A DNA stretch of 64,000 nt from contig JAXGPC010000004.1 of the NCBI GenBank assembly GCA_040767155.1, forward strand, positions 415,353 through 479,352. Direction: 5' to 3'. Of this stretch, positions 58 to 6,202 are shown piece after piece. The notes beneath the pieces were generated by a model that did not search any database, was not told the origin of the DNA, and saw only the letters and a list, made by a program, of their open reading frames with translations. This DNA comes from Anaerolineae bacterium. Its GTDB lineage: Bacteria; Chloroflexota; Anaerolineae; B4-G1; SLSP01. Within the stretch, counting starts at the first letter, position 1. The number at the start of each line of letters is the position of its first letter. The translations under genes and the position numbers were made by a program.

Positions 58-417
58 CTACACCGCCTCGCCGCTTCCATAGGACTCAAAACGGTCCAGA
101 TCCCACACGAAAACCACGGCATAGCCCAGTTCGGCCGCCGTTGTCCCGTTGGGTGCCGTGCCTGCGTCGTGTGTGCCGTTGGCGTCGTGTAACTGCTCGG
201 TGACAGCCACACTCGTTCTACAGGTGCTCTGAATGATGCTCAGCACATCATCAACGCTCTCTGCCGGCGTGGCGATGAACAGCATCTTCTGCGCCTGTCG
301 CAACATTCCACCCCGGCTTTCCGTAAACGTGACGCCGTACCCGGCCATAATCAGCTTATCGAGGACCCGATCGGCCTGGTCACGCGACACAACTGCCATC
401 ACCATCTTCCGCGTCAT
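58..417 (-). CDS. PII-fold signal protein, DarA/PstA-like (DUF970, cyclic-di-AMP receptor family); start overlaps atpA stop (ATGA)
   Basis: 119 aa. Motif layout matches DarA/YaaQ as I recall it: N-terminal MAVVSRDQADRVLDKLIMAGYGVTFTESRGGM (beta-alpha-beta, GGF/M), central VLSIIQSTC, C-terminal GYAVVFVWDLDRFE (cf. DarA GGATVFV.PVD.F). Same strand as atpA, immediately 3' of it, with 4-nt overlap. Confidence 0.55.
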   Translation of the reverse strand: MTRKMVMAVVSRDQADRVLDKLIMAGYGVTFTESRGGMLRQAQKMLFIATPAESVDDVLSIIQSTCRTSVAVTEQLHDANGTHDAGTAPNGTTAAELGYAVVFVWDLDRFESYGSGEAV

Positions 418-2117
418 TGCACCAATCCCCCACGCATGTTCCCAAGTAACGACCTGGCGGCCGCGGCAAACGCCTCCGGATATTCCGGCCCGGCATCGCC
501 GCTCCGATCGAGCGCCGTCATCATCGCCGGATGATGTGCCCTGAAATGGGCGACAAACCCACGCTCGAACGCCGCGATTTCGTCAACGCGCAGGTCGTCC
601 AGGAATCCCTGGCCGGCTGCGTTGAGCATCAAGAGAGTCTCTCCCTGAGACAGGGGAGAGTGAGGAGGCTGGGTCAGCAAACGTTGCCAGCGTTCACCGC
701 GCCGAATCTGACGCCGTGTTGCCTCGTCGACATCGGTCCCGAAGCGGGCGAACCGTCGCACCTCCTCATATTGCGCCAGCTCCAAGCGCAGGTTCGACGC
801 CAGCCGGCGCATCGCTGGCACCTGGGCCGCCCCGCCAACGCGCGACACCGACGTTCCGGCACTGATAGCCGGCTTGACTCCCTGGTTAAAGAGATCGGTG
901 TCGACAATGATCTGTCCGTCGGTGATGGAGATGAGGTTCGTGGGAATGTAGGATGACAGGTTGCCCTGCTGAATCTCGGCCACAGGCAGAGCGGTCAGAG
1001 ATCCCCCACCAGCCTCAGTGTTCAGCTTGCACGCACGCTCGAGAAGCCGTGAGTGGAGGTAGAAGATGTCGCCTGGGTAGGCCTCGCGTCCCGGAGCGCG
1101 CCGCAGGAGCAGGCTTAACTCGCGATAGGCATCTGCGTGACGGGTCAGATCGTCGTAGACGATCAGCACGTCACGCCCTTCCAGCATGAAGAACTCCGCC
1201 ATCGTGCACGCCGCGAACGGAGCCAGGTAACGAAGCGCAGGTGGATCGTCCGCGCCCGTGACGACGACCGTGGTGTATTCCAGCGCCCCTGCAGAACGGA
1301 GCGTCTGAATCGTCGCCAGTGTCGAGGATTTCTTCTGACCGATCGCGACGTAGAAGCAGATGACGTTCTGGTCGTGCTGGTTGAGGATCGTGTCTACGGC
1401 AAGCGTCGTCTTGCCGGTCTGTCGATCGCCCAGGATCAACTCGCGCTGGCCCCGACCAATCGGCACAAGCGCATCGACCATCTTCCAGCCCGTGAGCAAT
1501 GGTTGATCGACCGGCGCTCGATCTACGATGCGCGCCGCCTCTCGCTCCACCTGCCAGTACTCGCTGACCTCGATAGGATGCCGGTCATCGAGTGGTCTAC
1601 CCAGGGGATCGACGATCCGTCCCAGCACATCGTGACCGACCGGGACCTCGAGCGTCCGACCTGTCGCCGTGACAAGGTCGCCACCCTGAATCCCTTCGCT
1701 GGAGCCGAGCAGAATCACATCCAGCGAACGCCGCTCGAGGTTCAGGATCATCCCCTCAACACCGGTCGCGAAGCGCACCAGTTCGTTGGTTCGCGTCTGG
1801 GTCAGCCCGGACAGCGTCGCTACACCGCTCCCCACATGCTGGACGGTACCGACTTCGCGAAACTGTACGGAAGGGACGACGACGGCACCAGCCTGGCGCG
1901 TCAGCTCTGCCACGACATCCGCCAACCGAGGGCGCACGCGATCGGCGCCGACGAGCTGAGCGATGGCCTGGCTAATCCGGCGCACATCACCGGCGCCGAG
2001 CAGCGCCGAAGGAACACCTTCGCCCACCTCTTCAAGCTCACGTTCCCTGGCGCCTCGCTCCTGCAGGGTGCGGAGCACTGAAACTACATCGGGTCTCCCA
2101 CGCCGGCGTTCAGCCAC
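414..2117 (-). CDS. atpA: F1 ATP synthase alpha subunit
   Basis: Walker A GDRQTGKTT; strong similarity throughout to alpha subunits (ILGDRQTGKT, DDLTRHA, ISITDGQI). The ORF start at 2117 lies 2 nt after the b/delta stop, giving a ~55-aa N-terminal extension. An alternative internal GTG start near 1937 would give a canonical ~508 aa protein. Confidence 0.9.
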   Translation of the reverse strand: MAERRRGRPDVVSVLRTLQERGARERELEEVGEGVPSALLGAGDVRRISQAIAQLVGADRVRPRLADVVAELTRQAGAVVVPSVQFREVGTVQHVGSGVATLSGLTQTRTNELVRFATGVEGMILNLERRSLDVILLGSSEGIQGGDLVTATGRTLEVPVGHDVLGRIVDPLGRPLDDRHPIEVSEYWQVEREAARIVDRAPVDQPLLTGWKMVDALVPIGRGQRELILGDRQTGKTTLAVDTILNQHDQNVICFYVAIGQKKSSTLATIQTLRSAGALEYTTVVVTGADDPPALRYLAPFAACTMAEFFMLEGRDVLIVYDDLTRHADAYRELSLLLRRAPGREAYPGDIFYLHSRLLERACKLNTEAGGGSLTALPVAEIQQGNLSSYIPTNLISITDGQIIVDTDLFNQGVKPAISAGTSVSRVGGAAQVPAMRRLASNLRLELAQYEEVRRFARFGTDVDEATRRQIRRGERWQRLLTQPPHSPLSQGETLLMLNAAGQGFLDDLRVDEIAAFERGFVAHFRAHHPAMMTALDRSGDAGPEYPEAFAAAARSLLGNMRGGLVQ

Positions 2118-2892
2118 TGGCCAAGCGCTCCTTCAGCGCATCAGCCACCGTACCCCTCAGTGACTCGAGTCGTCCGGCCACCGTGTTGTCAAGCACCAAA
2201 TCGCCCAGCCGCACTTCAAGCCCCAACCCAAGTGCGGGTTCCACTTTCGTCTCGATATTCACGTTGCGATCCGCTAGTGCGGCGAAGGTCCGTGCCACCA
2301 GACCTTGCTGGTCTCGCGTGAGCGCGTGGGCGGTCCGTATCACGACCGTGGGCGTGCGGTCCCCCAGAGACTGACGCAGCATGTCCACTCTGCGCATATC
2401 GGTCTGCCCCATCTCCCAAACGCTGTCACATAGCTGCTGGACGAGCGAGTCGTGGAGGGCAGCCGGCGCTGCTTGACCGATGGTCAGGCTGGAGACATCA
2501 AGTACGGCCCTCAGCGCGTCATCGCGGAACTCATCGAGTTCCTGCTCCTTCAAACGATAGGCATCGACATGGGCCTCAGCCAGAATTCGCTCAACCTCGC
2601 GGCGGGCTTCCTCCACCGCTGCCGCACGCTCGACCTCAGCCTGATCCCTGGCACTACCGATGACAGCTTCGGCCTCCTGGTCAGCAGCGGCCAGCCTCCG
2701 CTCCAGTTCACCCCGCAGCTCGTCGGCCTCGGCAATGCTCTGTGCCAATCGTTCTGACTGTCGCTGCTTCTGCTCTGCGTGCTCCCGAACGCGTGAGAGT
2801 GTGGGCCTGAACAGGACGAAGTAGAGAGCCACGAACAGGATGAGAAAGTTTAGCGCCTGCCATCCTATGGTCTCGAGCTCAAGGTCAAGCAT
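2110..2892 (-). CDS. atpF: F0 ATP synthase subunit b fused to the C-terminal domain of subunit delta (OSCP)
   Basis: 260 aa. N-terminus is a single TM plus long charged coiled-coil, typical of subunit b. C-terminal ~90 aa (VVIRTAHALTRDQQGLVARTFAALADRNVNIETKVEPALGLGLEVRLGDLVLDNTVAGRLESLRGTV) aligns with the delta C-domain (E. coli ...AALSEQQL...AGDMVIDGSVRGRLERL). No separate delta gene; no delta N-terminal domain. Confidence 0.8.
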   Translation of the reverse strand: MLDLELETIGWQALNFLILFVALYFVLFRPTLSRVREHAEQKQRQSERLAQSIAEADELRGELERRLAAADQEAEAVIGSARDQAEVERAAAVEEARREVERILAEAHVDAYRLKEQELDEFRDDALRAVLDVSSLTIGQAAPAALHDSLVQQLCDSVWEMGQTDMRRVDMLRQSLGDRTPTVVIRTAHALTRDQQGLVARTFAALADRNVNIETKVEPALGLGLEVRLGDLVLDNTVAGRLESLRGTVADALKERLASG

Positions 2893-5995: not shown

Positions 5996-6174
5996 GAGTC
6001 CGGGTGTTGGCAAAGCCACCTCGCAAGGGAATCCCCAGAAACCCACATCAGGCTTCCAGGTGGTATGCGGCACCACACCGGGTGCGCGCACCCGGTCCAA
6101 CCCACTGCGGACCGGCCACCAGCCGGGGCCGCCACCGTAGTATACCAAACGACAAGAAGAGCACAAGCATTAGC

Positions 6175-6202
6175 GATCCCAGGATCGGGCGATCCTGGGA
6201 TC
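6175..6202. promoter_or_regulatory. Perfect 12-bp inverted repeat GATCCCAGGATC-GGGC-GATCCTGGGATC in the atpD/mreB divergent intergenic region
   Basis: Read directly from the sequence; 28-bp palindrome, no T-tract, lies between divergently transcribed atp operon and mreB. Confidence 0.6.

What the first reader, a model, noticed from the sequence alone, without database searches (positions are those of the whole stretch)
58..6202. Rearranged N-ATPase-like operon with a DarA-like PII protein in the gamma position
Gene order on the minus strand is beta-epsilon-(small membrane protein)-a-c-b-alpha. This is the N-ATPase arrangement (atpDCQRBEFAG of Dibrova/Galperin/Mulkidjanian), not the canonical F-type order atpIBEFHAGDC. 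Subunit c has the Na+-ligand pattern E-T-T-x-x-Y in helix 2. Only one AtpQ/R-like membrane gene is present instead of two. No delta gene is present. Where gamma is expected after alpha there is a 119-aa PII-fold protein. Its motifs resemble the cyclic-di-AMP receptor DarA/PstA (DUF970), and its start codon overlaps the atpA stop (ATGA), implying translational coupling. PII-like proteins typically regulate the transporter encoded next to them (GlnK-AmtB, SbtB-SbtA). A DarA homologue hard-wired into an ion-pumping ATPase operon would be an undescribed c-di-AMP (or adenylate) control point on a rotary ATPase. It would also be a candidate physiological target for the still-unassigned DarA family.
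Basis: partly seen in the sequence, partly recalled or inferred. Interest (0 to 1): 0.85.

Follow-up and report, generated by a model that had tools for sequence, protein, structure and literature searches.

The report
PII-like sensor gene inside ATPase operon
In a group of uncultured Anaerolineae bacteria, a small signal-sensing protein of the DarA/PstA (PII-like) family is always encoded between the alpha and gamma genes of a sodium-type rotary ATPase, which points to an undescribed regulator of this enzyme; gamma is not missing.

Summary
The genes are there as described, with one important error. Gamma is not replaced. It starts 3 nt after the stop of the 119-aa gene and runs off the window edge. 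The real order is beta-epsilon-AtpR-like-a-c-b/delta-alpha-[PII-like]-gamma.

The 119-aa protein belongs to Pfam CdAMP_rec (53 bits, cut-off 27). Its predicted fold is closest to PstA/DarA.

Its position is strongly conserved:
- It lies between alpha and gamma in all 66 species genomes found through it.
- It lies directly before gamma in 68 of 75 informative metagenome loci found through gamma.
- It usually overlaps the alpha stop codon (ATGA).

This subfamily differs from experimentally studied c-di-AMP receptors. The two mutagenesis-validated contacts are replaced (Phe36 to Met/Val, Asn41 to Gln), and new near-invariant Arg residues appear. The ligand is therefore open.

The ATPase resembles N-ATPases:
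- same gene order;
- b fused to the delta C-terminus;
- c subunit with two Glu residues and E[ST]TxxY;
- an AtpR-like protein with both hallmark Arg residues.

It nevertheless fails all curated N-ATPase models, forms its own clade, and sits in conserved chromosomal synteny.

Best reading: a dedicated nucleotide-sensing accessory subunit of a Na+-coupled rotary ATPase. I found no paper describing it. It is a new variant of a known kind, and interesting.

The parts
1..54 (-). 5' end of atpG (gamma). TTG start at 54; the first 18 codons lie in the window and the rest lies beyond position 1.
   Evidence: sequence; tblastn of the L001 gamma: 18/18 identical at 54-1; full 309-aa gamma in L001 4522-5451, Pfam ATP-synt 148 bits.
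58..417 (-). 119-aa PII-like protein of the DarA/PstA family (ATPase-linked subfamily). Its ATG overlaps the alpha TGA.
   Evidence: Pfam PF06153, 53.1 bits against cut-off 27. NCBIfam DarA equivalog, 53.5 against 140, not reached. PDB PstA/DarA hits. AF2 model with Foldseek top hits PstA/DarA. Position conserved.
414..2117 (-). atpA (alpha), 567 aa, with an N-terminal extension of about 60 aa.
   Evidence: Pfam ATP-synt_ab_N/ab/ab_C. NCBIfam PRK13343 668 bits and atpA 634 bits, both above cut-off. alt_F1F0 alpha 612, below 750. ORF length 555-600 aa in relatives.
2110..2892 (-). atpF: b subunit fused to the C-terminal part of delta, 260 aa.
   Evidence: Pfam ATP-synt_B (residues 8-130) plus OSCP (182-246, matching profile positions 104-169 of 172). 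Best NCBIfam match is alt_F1F0_F0_B over its full length, but 80.7 bits against cut-off 224.7.
2917..3198 (-). atpE (c subunit), 93 aa, with Glu in helix 1 and ETTAIY in helix 2 (full set of Na+ ligands).
   Evidence: Pfam ATP-synt_C. Among relatives the motif is Glu in 81/81 and E[ST]TxxY in 78/81.
3241..3873 (-). atpB (a subunit), 210 aa.
   Evidence: Pfam ATP-synt_A, 134 bits.
3894..4184 (-). 96-aa membrane protein, AtpR/AtpI-like, with Arg49 and Arg79 inside predicted membrane helices.
   Evidence: Pfam ATP-synt_I 24.0 bits, just under 25.1; no AtpR or AtpQ hit. In an alignment with bona fide AtpR proteins, G12, R49 and R79 are invariant.
4185..4619 (-). atpC (epsilon), 144 aa.
   Evidence: Pfam ATP-synt_DE_N, residues 8-87.
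4622..6019 (-). atpD (beta). The ORF is open up to 6166, but homology starts near residue 54. GTG codons at 6019 and 6046 are candidate starts.
   Evidence: NCBIfam atpD 684 bits, above cut-off 463; alt_F1F0 beta 594, below 752. Sequence. Relatives are 465-471 aa.
6167..6308 (.). Intergenic region between atpD and the divergent mreB. It presumably holds the promoter and contains an inverted repeat, TCCCAGGATCG-CCC-GATCCTGGGA, at about 6176-6200.
   Evidence: MreB, 6309-7316, + strand; sequence. The promoter scan is at background level.

Best explanation
The 119-aa gene encodes a trimer-forming PII-like protein of the DarA/PstA family. It has become a dedicated accessory or regulatory component of a Na+-coupled, N-ATPase-related F-type rotary ATPase in a clade of uncultured Anaerolineae.

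Proposed mechanism:
- It is translated by coupling from the 3' end of the alpha message, so about three protomers (one trimer) would be made per alpha3beta3.
- It senses an adenine nucleotide in its inter-subunit clefts. The adenine and ribose pocket is kept, but the second-nucleotide site of c-di-AMP receptors is remodelled and new Arg residues appear. The signal could be c-di-AMP, or ATP/ADP/AMP.
- In one ligand state it binds the F1 or stator part and switches ATP-driven Na+ pumping or ATP synthesis on or off.

Shown here: family, fold, gene position, its conservation, the stop/start overlap, the subfamily-specific motif, and the Na+ motif of the c subunit.

Inferred: trimer formation, ligand binding, physical contact with the ATPase, and the direction of regulation.
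For: Family and fold:
- Pfam CdAMP_rec above its cut-off.
- A profile of the family hits PstA/DarA structures at E about 1e-13.
- The AF2 model (mean pLDDT 72.7; core blocks 82-95) has PstA/DarA as its best Foldseek matches.

Position:
- All 66 species-representative genomes found through this protein carry it next to atpA and atpG. 64 show atpG directly downstream and 64 show atpA upstream; the rest end at a contig edge.
- In the reverse search through gamma, 68 of 75 informative metagenome loci have it directly upstream of gamma, and 2 more have it one gene further up.
- A divergent 44% GC lineage has it too, plus a second copy after gamma.

Coupling:
- The alpha stop and PII start overlap by 4 nt in 41 of 64 genome loci and by 1 nt in 4 more.
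- The gap to gamma is mostly 1-30 nt.

Subfamily signature:
- None of the 120 closest homologues has the canonical GG[FWY]xxxxN motif; 119 have GG[MV]x[RQ]Q.
- R12, R35, R40, Q41 and W105 are 95-99% conserved.

Specificity: five bona fide N-ATPase operons have alpha directly followed by gamma. Hymenobacter, treated as N-like, shows the same.

Established knowledge: PII-type proteins commonly regulate the transporter encoded next to them (GlnK-AmtB, SbtB-SbtA).
Against: - There is no experimental or structural evidence of contact with any ATPase subunit. No complex prediction could be run.
- One complete related operon (L093) lacks the gene, so it is not indispensable.
- The long B-loop moves on ligand binding in PstA and, according to the mBio 2025 authors, may affect binding of partners. 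Here it is hypervariable in length and sequence and is nearly absent in L066.
- The ligand is unknown, and the NCBIfam DarA equivalog cut-off is far from reached.
- Whether the organism makes c-di-AMP could not be checked. No DAC gene was seen among the 20 further window proteins scanned or on the L073 gene table for about 27-48 kb. No c-di-AMP riboswitch was seen in the window or five loci.
Confidence: 0.6

Rival explanations
1. One reading: the protein is a genuine c-di-AMP receptor, and through it c-di-AMP (the osmotic and K+ homeostasis messenger) controls a Na+-pumping ATPase.
For: - It belongs to the only Pfam family defined by c-di-AMP binding.
- Thr28, Gly34-Gly35, Leu37, Gly94 and Phe99 of PstA are kept as T30, G36-G37, L39, G98 and F103 (93-100%).
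- Gly at the Arg26 position also occurs in c-di-AMP-binding LmPstA.
- Known c-di-AMP targets are ion and osmolyte transporters, so a Na+ pump fits the theme.
Against: - Phe36, which stacks on the second adenine, is Met or Val in 89% and Phe in only 5%.
- Asn41 is Gln in 80% and never Asn among the listed residues. In LmPstA, F36A raises Kd from 1.4 to 7 uM and N41A to about 140 uM.
- The phosphate-binding His is Glu/Thr here.
- Distant relatives, including two-domain forms, keep GGF...N, and the two motif classes never co-occur. This argues for a deliberate change of the site.
- Presence of a diadenylate cyclase was not shown.
Confidence: 0.3
2. It is a structural or assembly component without a sensing role. 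One example would be a three-fold symmetric cap on the alpha3beta3 crown that engages the extended alpha N-termini where the N-terminal domain of delta is missing. Another would be a chaperone for F1 assembly.
For: - The operon lacks the N-terminal domain of delta.
- Alpha carries an N-terminal extension of about 60 aa across the lineage.
- Coupling to alpha, which has three copies per complex, matches one trimer per complex (inference).
- The ligand site is altered.
Against: - N-ATPases also lack the delta N-terminal domain and manage without such a protein.
- L093 has the alpha extension but no PII-like gene.
- The adenine and ribose pocket residues stay invariant, which is hard to explain without a ligand.
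Confidence: 0.15
3. It is a regulator of something other than the ATPase (another transporter, enzyme or transcription factor). It sits in the operon only so that it is expressed together with the ATPase.
For: - The one proposed target of the family so far is a transcription factor, GlnR.
- DarA/PstA genes in Firmicutes sit with tmk, with no shown functional link to that neighbour.
- A HIT-family nucleotide hydrolase gene follows gamma in 30 of 66 loci, so the cluster is not purely ATPase genes.
Against: - The position is fixed between two F1 genes, not at an operon end, across lineages down to 36-40% identity, with overlapping stop and start codons.
- No member of the subfamily was seen outside an ATPase operon in 66 + 70 loci.
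Confidence: 0.12

Closest known systems
[quoted passage not shown]
   Same: - Same Pfam family and same predicted fold, with a short T-loop and a long B-loop.
- Conserved Thr28, Gly-Gly of the T-loop, Gly94 and Phe99 equivalents.
- About 110 aa, single domain.
   Different: - Only 24% identity to the solved structures.
- NCBIfam DarA equivalog score 53.5 against cut-off 140.
- GGFL...N is replaced by GG[MV]LRQAQ.
- New near-invariant R12, R35, R40, Q41, W105.
- The B-loop is hypervariable.
- Found in Chloroflexota rather than Firmicutes.
- Encoded between atpA and atpG rather than with tmk.
N-ATPase (atpDCQRBEFAG; Dibrova, Galperin and Mulkidjanian 2010, PMC2881411)
   Same: - Gene order beta-epsilon-small membrane gene(s)-a-c-b-alpha-gamma.
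- No delta gene; long b with the delta C-terminal part.
- c subunit with Glu in both helices plus E[ST]TxxY.
- A three-helix protein with the two membrane Arg residues of AtpR.
- A divergent relative also keeps an AtpQ-like gene.
- Subunits a, b and c are closer to N-type than to F-type sequences.
   Different: - All NCBIfam alt_F1F0 models are below their cut-offs, while the general atpA and atpD models pass.
- No Pfam AtpR or AtpQ hit in the window.
- Alpha and beta form a separate clade.
- The operon sits in conserved chromosomal synteny with mreB and a HIT gene rather than on mobile DNA.
- It has an extra PII-like gene.
- Whether it is a second copy is unknown.
PII-type regulators encoded next to the transporter they gate (GlnK-AmtB, SbtB-SbtA)
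   Same: A small trimeric PII-superfamily protein is co-transcribed with a membrane ion-transport machine. The expected logic is ligand-dependent binding that blocks or releases the transporter (established knowledge; for the general principle).
   Different: The neighbour is a multi-subunit rotary ATPase, not a channel or carrier. The gene lies inside the F1 gene block. The T-loop is short, so the plug-the-pore mechanism of GlnK is unlikely. No interaction has been shown.
Protein inhibitors of F-type ATPases (epsilon C-terminal domain, alphaproteobacterial zeta subunit, mitochondrial IF1, cyanobacterial AtpTheta)
   Same: Small proteins that prevent wasteful ATP hydrolysis according to energy state. 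This is the functional niche the PII-like protein could fill (own knowledge, not tested here).
   Different: None of these has a PII fold or a nucleotide second-messenger site. No sequence or fold similarity was found here.

Membership tests
DarA/PstA c-di-AMP receptor family (PF06153) | Matches the family profile above the curated threshold | tested here: met
   Pfam CdAMP_rec 53.1 bits against gathering score 27, covering residues 4-111.
DarA/PstA c-di-AMP receptor family (PF06153) | Reaches the NCBIfam equivalog model for DarA itself | tested here: not met
   NF058593 scores 53.5 bits against cut-off 140. The L163 relatives score 48.8 and 51.8.
DarA/PstA c-di-AMP receptor family (PF06153) | PII-like ferredoxin fold with a short structured T-loop and a long B-loop | tested here: met
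   AF2 secondary structure is beta-alpha-beta-beta-alpha-beta with a low-confidence loop at 70-96. The top 12 Foldseek PDB hits are PstA, DarA and PEPE_1480.
DarA/PstA c-di-AMP receptor family (PF06153) | GGFL T-loop motif with Phe36 stacking on the second adenine | tested here: not met
   At this position: Met 62%, Val 27%, Phe 5% in 121 unique family members. Role of Phe36.
DarA/PstA c-di-AMP receptor family (PF06153) | Asn41 bonding the ribose 2'-OH (N41A lowers affinity about 100-fold) | tested here: not met
   Gln 80%, Lys 8%, Arg 4%, Glu 3%. Mutant data.
DarA/PstA c-di-AMP receptor family (PF06153) | First-nucleotide pocket: Thr28, Gly26-Ala27 peptide, Gly47 main chain, Gly94, Phe99 | tested here: met
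   T30 100%, A29 90%, A49 81% (main-chain contact), G98 95%, F103 96%.
DarA/PstA c-di-AMP receptor family (PF06153) | Binds c-di-AMP specifically; forms a homotrimer | not testable with these tools
   No docking, multimer modelling or biochemistry is available.
N-ATPase | Operon order atpD-C-Q-R-B-E-F-A-G | tested here: inconclusive
   The eight ATPase genes are in that order, but AtpQ is absent from the window and an extra gene lies between A and G. A divergent relative has an AtpQ-like gene.
N-ATPase | AtpR, the 'tell-tale' subunit: three membrane helices, two with conserved Arg | tested here: inconclusive
   No Pfam AtpR hit for the window protein even at E up to 10. Its homologue in L093 hits AtpR weakly (16 bits). 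In an alignment with three Pfam-confirmed AtpR proteins, G12, R49 and R79 are invariant.
N-ATPase | No delta gene; long b subunit with the C-terminal part of delta | tested here: met
   260-aa b with Pfam ATP-synt_B plus OSCP positions 104-169. Definition.
N-ATPase | c subunit with Glu in helix 1 and a full set of Na+ ligands | tested here: met
   Window sequence: VEG...ETTAIY. Glu in 81/81 and E[ST]TxxY in 78/81 relatives.
N-ATPase | Subunits cluster with N-ATPase subunits, apart from F-type | tested here: not met
   alt_F1F0 scores against cut-offs: alpha 612/750, beta 594/752, a 142/302, b 81/225, c 85/131, epsilon 16/100. In NJ trees the five N-type operons form a clade that excludes the Anaerolineae sequences (small taxon sample).
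N-ATPase | Always a second copy beside a canonical F- or A-type ATP synthase | not testable with these tools
   Whole genomes could not be searched. No second operon in the 64-kb window. Weak hint only: many Anaerolineae MAGs are reported with 'at least seven of eight' F-ATPase subunits.
N-ATPase | Laterally mobile operon with variable neighbourhoods, sometimes on plasmids | tested here: not met
   Divergent mreB upstream in 22 further loci and a HIT gene downstream in 30 of 66. Window neighbours are housekeeping genes: MreB, MetRS, sigma-70, FtsH, PFK.
Canonical bacterial F1Fo ATP synthase | alpha and beta reach the atpA and atpD equivalog cut-offs | tested here: met
   atpA 634 against 484; atpD 684 against 463.
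Canonical bacterial F1Fo ATP synthase | Separate full-length delta subunit and order atpIBEFHAGDC | tested here: not met
   No atpH gene. The delta C-terminal part is fused to b, and atpDC come first. Compare Bacillus, L078.

The most novel reading that the evidence does not exclude
A three-fold symmetric PII-like trimer is a stoichiometric, nucleotide-controlled subunit of a Na+-coupled rotary ATPase. It would dock on the pseudo-three-fold alpha3beta3 head, for example on the extended alpha N-termini where the delta N-terminal domain is absent, and lock or release the enzyme according to a second messenger or the adenylate state. This would be the first rotary ATPase under direct PII or second-messenger control, and a firmly assigned, structurally tractable target for the DarA/PstA family.
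Probability: 0.3. Interest if true: 0.9.

Novelty: new variant of a known kind. Interest (0 to 1): 0.72.

Why it matters
- Rotary ATPases are among the best-studied enzymes. Their known protein regulators (epsilon, zeta, IF1, AtpTheta) are few and none is a PII-type sensor.
- The partners of the DarA/PstA family have resisted identification for a decade. A first candidate, GlnR, was proposed only in a 2026 preprint.
- Here comparative genomics gives an unusually strong guilt-by-association case: a distinct subfamily found only between atpA and atpG, in about 130 loci. That makes a target directly testable by co-expression, pull-down and cryo-EM.
- It also defines a chromosomal, vertically inherited relative of the N-ATPases in Chloroflexota. 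This bears on how N-type and F-type enzymes diverged.
- The remodelled ligand site offers a natural experiment in how PII-like proteins change effector specificity.

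Tried and rejected
1. 'Gamma is replaced': rejected. Gamma starts at window position 54.
2. An apparent DarA-gamma fusion ORF in L066 was an artefact of my ORF script. 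The sequence shows a TGA stop and a separate ATG.
3. The known insertion in the Acaryochloris N-ATPase operon is a cation:proton antiporter between atpQ and atpR, not a PII-like gene.
4. Two exact-match look-ups of window proteins found nothing.
5. The look-up of the two-domain protein P0156 gave only a 978-bp contig with no context.
6. Promoter and terminator scans around the operon were at shuffle background.
7. The Rfam scan of the window and five loci found only tRNAs and no c-di-AMP riboswitch. An earlier call failed on the size limit.
8. Pfam scans of 20 further window proteins found no diadenylate cyclase and no second ATPase. This says little for a 64-kb piece.
9. Literature searches for DarA/YaaQ/PF06153 together with ATP synthase, and for N-ATPase in Chloroflexi, found nothing on this arrangement. 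The Selim and Alva 2024 review of PII-like proteins is not held.
10. I could not decide whether this is the only ATPase of these organisms.

Full report
WHAT IS IN THE WINDOW. On the minus strand of window 1-6166 lies one tight gene cluster.
- beta: ORF 4622-6166. Homology begins near residue 54, and GTG codons at 6019 and 6046 are candidate starts.
- epsilon: 4185-4619.
- A 96-aa membrane protein: 3894-4184.
- a: 3241-3873.
- c: 2917-3198.
- A 260-aa b subunit: 2110-2892.
- alpha: 414-2117, 567 aa.
- A 119-aa gene: 58-417.

The b protein carries Pfam ATP-synt_B at residues 8-130 and the C-terminal third of delta (OSCP profile positions 104-169) at residues 182-246. So there is no delta gene, but part of delta is present. 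The c subunit reads ...ALVEGRAV...RQPE...LLETTAIY. It has Glu at the position equivalent to Gln32 of Ilyobacter tartaricus c (reference numbering from my own knowledge) and E-T-T-x-x-Y in helix 2. The start of the 119-aa gene overlaps the alpha stop as ATGA, with a GGGGGA Shine-Dalgarno-like stretch 8 nt upstream.

GAMMA IS NOT MISSING. That is wrong.
- Three bases after its TAG stop, a TTG at position 54 opens a frame reading LDVERAESRLRNIENVKP that runs off the window.
- Longer copies of the same contig were found by exact match of the 119-aa protein (L001 from a 121.8-kb contig, and L002). They carry a 309-aa gamma at that place, followed by a HIT-family gene. This gamma hits Pfam ATP-synt at 148 bits.
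- tblastn of that gamma matches window 54-1 at 18/18 residues.
- The true order is atpD-C-(R-like)-B-E-F-A-[PII-like]-G.

THE SMALL PROTEIN. It belongs to Pfam PF06153 (CdAMP_rec): 53.1 bits against a gathering score of 27, over residues 4-111.
- It does not reach NCBI's equivalog model for DarA itself (53.5 against 140).
- By sequence its nearest solved structures are S. aureus and L. monocytogenes PstA, Pediococcus PEPE_1480 and B. subtilis DarA. E-values are 6e-8 for the single sequence and about 1e-13 for a family profile.
- An AlphaFold2 model built on 29 homologues has mean pLDDT 72.7. The beta-alpha-beta core is confident (10-residue blocks at 82-95). The T-loop block 31-40 is lower (63), and residues 70-96 are disordered.
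- The twelve best Foldseek matches in the PDB are all PstA, DarA or PEPE_1480, ahead of GlnK and GlnB.
- It is a DarA/PstA-type PII-like protein in family and fold.

THE POSITION IS CONSERVED.
- A database search returned 271 homologues. The best 120 are 50-99% identical, and where named they come from Anaerolineae MAGs.
- A pattern scan of one genome per prokaryotic species found 66 loci, nearly all labelled Anaerolineae or Chloroflexota MAGs.
- In every one the gene lies in the same operon. 64 show gamma directly downstream and 64 show alpha directly upstream. The remaining cases stop at a contig end.
- By a simple start-codon heuristic, the alpha stop and PII start overlap by 4 nt in 41 of 64 loci and by 1 nt in 4 more. 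The gap to gamma is mostly 1-30 nt. The b stop overlaps the alpha start by 8 nt in most loci.
- To avoid circularity I searched the other way, through gamma, in metagenome contigs. Of 80 loci, 75 have enough upstream sequence, and 68 of those have the PII-like gene directly before gamma.
- Two more (L094, L133) have it one gene further up, before a second alpha copy.
- One complete operon (L093) lacks it. L085 has neither alpha nor the PII-like gene upstream of gamma. Three fragments (L090, L100, L121) show alpha next to gamma with the upstream part cut off.
- A divergent lineage with 44% GC (L163/L164; beta 69% identical to the window's) has the gene between alpha and gamma, and a second copy after gamma.
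- Five bona fide N-ATPase operons fetched from plasmids have alpha directly followed by gamma: Picosynechococcus pAQ7, Legionella, Burkholderia, Azospirillum and Acaryochloris. The Hymenobacter operon, which I labelled N-like, does too.
- The association is therefore specific to this ATPase lineage and nearly obligate within it.

THE LIGAND SITE HAS BEEN REMODELLED. The PstA structure paper (PMC4475381) lists the c-di-AMP contacts.
- The first nucleotide uses the Gly47 main chain, the Gly26-Ala27 peptide, Thr28, Asn41, Thr97, Phe99, Gly94 and His108.
- The second nucleotide uses the 34-GGFL-37 turn, with Phe36 stacking on the adenine.
- F36A raises Kd from 1.4 to 7 uM, and N41A raises it to about 140 uM.

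I mapped these positions onto 121 unique members of the ATPase-linked family.

| PstA position | ATPase-linked family |
|---|---|
| Thr28 | T, 100% |
| Gly34-Gly35 | G 93%, G 100% |
| Leu37 | L, 96% |
| Gly94 | G, 95% |
| Phe99 | F, 96% |
| Gly47 | A, 81% (a main-chain contact) |
| Phe36 | Met 62%, Val 27%, Phe 5% |
| Asn41 | Gln 80% |
| Thr97 | Val 75% |
| His107/108 | Glu 81% / Thr 54% |

New near-invariant residues appear: R12, R35, R40, Q41 and W105 (95-99%), plus F31 (90%).

A profile search of 1.84 billion cluster representatives found 1310 family members at E <= 1e-3.
- The 36 best-scoring representatives all lack the canonical GG[FWY]xxxxN motif.
- Of the other 114 listed, 85 have it, including about 220-aa two-domain forms that carry it twice.
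- No protein has both motif types.
- None of the 120 closest homologues has the canonical motif, and 119 have GG[MV]x[RQ]Q.

The adenine and ribose pocket shared with classical PII proteins is thus kept, while the c-di-AMP-specific half of the site is changed throughout the clade. Binding of c-di-AMP is possible but cannot be assumed. A mononucleotide such as ATP or ADP is at least as plausible. This last step is inference.

WHAT KIND OF ATPASE. The defining traits of N-ATPases (Dibrova et al. 2010, PMC2881411) are:
- the atpDCQRBEFAG order;
- no delta gene, and a long b with the delta C-terminus;
- c subunits with two Glu residues and full Na+ ligands;
- the tell-tale AtpR, with Arg residues in two membrane helices;
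- separate clustering of the subunits;
- lateral mobility;
- always being a second copy.

Traits met here:
- The gene order holds, minus AtpQ and plus the extra gene.
- The b/delta fusion is present.
- The c motif is present: Glu in 81/81 and E[ST]TxxY in 78/81 related c subunits.

AtpR is unclear. The 96-aa protein gets no Pfam AtpR or AtpQ hit, only ATP-synt_I at 24.0 against 25.1. Aligned with Pfam-confirmed AtpR proteins, however, its G12, R49 and R79 are the only invariant columns. The L163 lineage also keeps an AtpQ-like gene.

Traits not met:
- Every NCBIfam alt_F1F0 model falls below its cut-off, while the general atpA and atpD models pass.
- Alpha is about equally distant from N-type (50-52%) and F-type (49-53%) sequences. 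Beta is slightly closer to F-type (54-58%) than to N-type (51-57%). Subunits a, b and c are closer to N-type.
- In small neighbour-joining trees the Anaerolineae sequences form their own group, outside the N-ATPase clade and outside three F-type references.
- The operon sits among housekeeping genes (MreB, MetRS, sigma-70, FtsH, PFK). The divergent mreB upstream is conserved in 22 further loci, and a HIT gene follows gamma in 30 of 66. That fits long vertical inheritance and not a mobile island.

I would call it an N-ATPase-related but distinct, Na+-coupled F-type lineage. Whether these organisms also have a canonical ATP synthase could not be tested. There is none in the window. [quoted passage not shown]

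HOW IT MOST LIKELY WORKS.
- Shown: a conserved PII-like gene, translationally linked to alpha and followed at once by gamma, with a clade-specific ligand-site signature, in a Na+-type rotary ATPase operon.
- Inferred from what PII-superfamily proteins do (trimers that bind nucleotides in inter-subunit clefts and then bind or release a target, often the neighbouring transporter): the protein is a dedicated sensor subunit of this ATPase.
- Coupling to alpha, which has three copies per enzyme, would give about three protomers, that is one trimer, per complex.
- It would bind F1 or the stator in one nucleotide state and so gate ATP-driven Na+ export or ATP synthesis.
- I put this at about 0.6.
- The c-di-AMP-specific version is about 0.3. 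It is a sub-case of the sensor model (ligand = c-di-AMP), so the figures here are not meant to add up to 1.
- A purely structural or assembly role is about 0.15.
- A regulator of something else that merely shares the transcript is about 0.12.

KNOWN OR NEW.
- Searches for DarA/PstA/YaaQ/PF06153 with ATP synthase, and for N-ATPase in Chloroflexi, found nothing on this arrangement.
- The PstA paper states that pstA is 'invariably' with tmk and absent outside Firmicutes.
- A 2023 review calls the DarA partner unidentified 'despite extensive efforts'.
- A July 2026 preprint proposes GlnR as the first PstA target.
- NCBI already labels some of these MAG proteins 'cyclic-di-AMP receptor', so the domain assignment is not new. 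The operon association, the subfamily and its altered site appear to be.

LIMITS.
- All carriers are uncultured, and no interaction or ligand has been tested.
- The trees use few taxa and a distance method.
- Start codons in the junction census are heuristic.
- The forward scan used two peptide patterns and may miss divergent members.
- The sole-versus-second ATPase question and the presence of a diadenylate cyclase remain open.

Noticed in passing
L047 1229-4774; L139 49-2679; L133 140-3036; L094 132-2265: Some related operons carry two alpha genes in tandem. The PII-like gene then lies either after both (L047, L139) or between them (L133, probably L094). This suggests alpha paralogues in one enzyme, or recent duplication.
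   Followed up: partly
L163 8411-8731 (same in L164); L132 2630-2950: A second DarA-like gene lies downstream of gamma in a divergent 44% GC lineage and in one metagenome locus. Both L163 copies have the ATPase-type motif (TKGG[VM][FL]RQSQ). That lineage also keeps an AtpQ-like gene (PF09527), and its c subunit has Gln rather than Glu in helix 1, with ESAGIY.
   Followed up: partly
L001 5466-5960 (just beyond window position 1); 30 of the 66 genome loci: A HIT-family nucleotide hydrolase gene (Pfam HIT, DcpS_C) follows gamma on the same strand after 15-60 nt. HIT enzymes act on AMP-linked compounds and dinucleoside polyphosphates, so a link to the unknown ligand of the PII-like protein is conceivable.
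   Followed up: no
window 1930-2117 (alpha residues 1-62) and relatives: Alpha has an N-terminal extension of about 60 aa that typical F-type and N-type alphas lack (ORFs 555-600 aa). In the window it looks like a repeat of the N-terminal helix (PDVVSVLRTLQERGA / LADVVAELTRQAGA). In other lineages it is acidic or replaced by an insertion.
   Followed up: partly
proteins P0156, P0159, P0160, P0165 and about 40 others: Proteins of about 220-250 aa made of two tandem DarA-like domains, each with the canonical GGF...N motif, are common among the family representatives. Their genomic context is unknown; the one look-up gave a 978-bp contig.
   Followed up: partly
window about 6176-6200: An inverted repeat, TCCCAGGATCG-CCC-GATCCTGGGA, lies in the intergenic region between atpD and the divergent mreB. 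It could be an operator or an RNA hairpin at the 5' end of the operon.
   Followed up: no
window 15474-20232 (- strand) and L001 6563-10413: Two separate MoxR-type AAA ATPase / DUF58 / transglutaminase-or-DUF4129 gene sets lie on either side of the ATPase operon.
   Followed up: no
window 26725-39411: A purine or allantoin catabolism cluster: AllH/AllF/AllG-like genes, cyclase, CoA-transferase, CN-hydrolase, xanthine/uracil permease, and a three-subunit xanthine dehydrogenase-type molybdoenzyme (from the gene table of L073).
   Followed up: no
L041 (JAIWHF010000151.1): One carrier contig is filed under a 'Methanosarcinales archaeon' MAG at 0.26x coverage. The operon is of the Anaerolineae type, so this is probably a binning error and not an archaeal case.
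   Followed up: no
PDB 9ITJ: The N-terminal half of the b subunit is most similar, among solved structures, to subunit b of the Chloroflexus aurantiacus ATP synthase. That enzyme was reported in 2025 to have two peripheral stalks and two a subunits. Whether the Anaerolineae enzyme shares this architecture is unknown.
   Followed up: no
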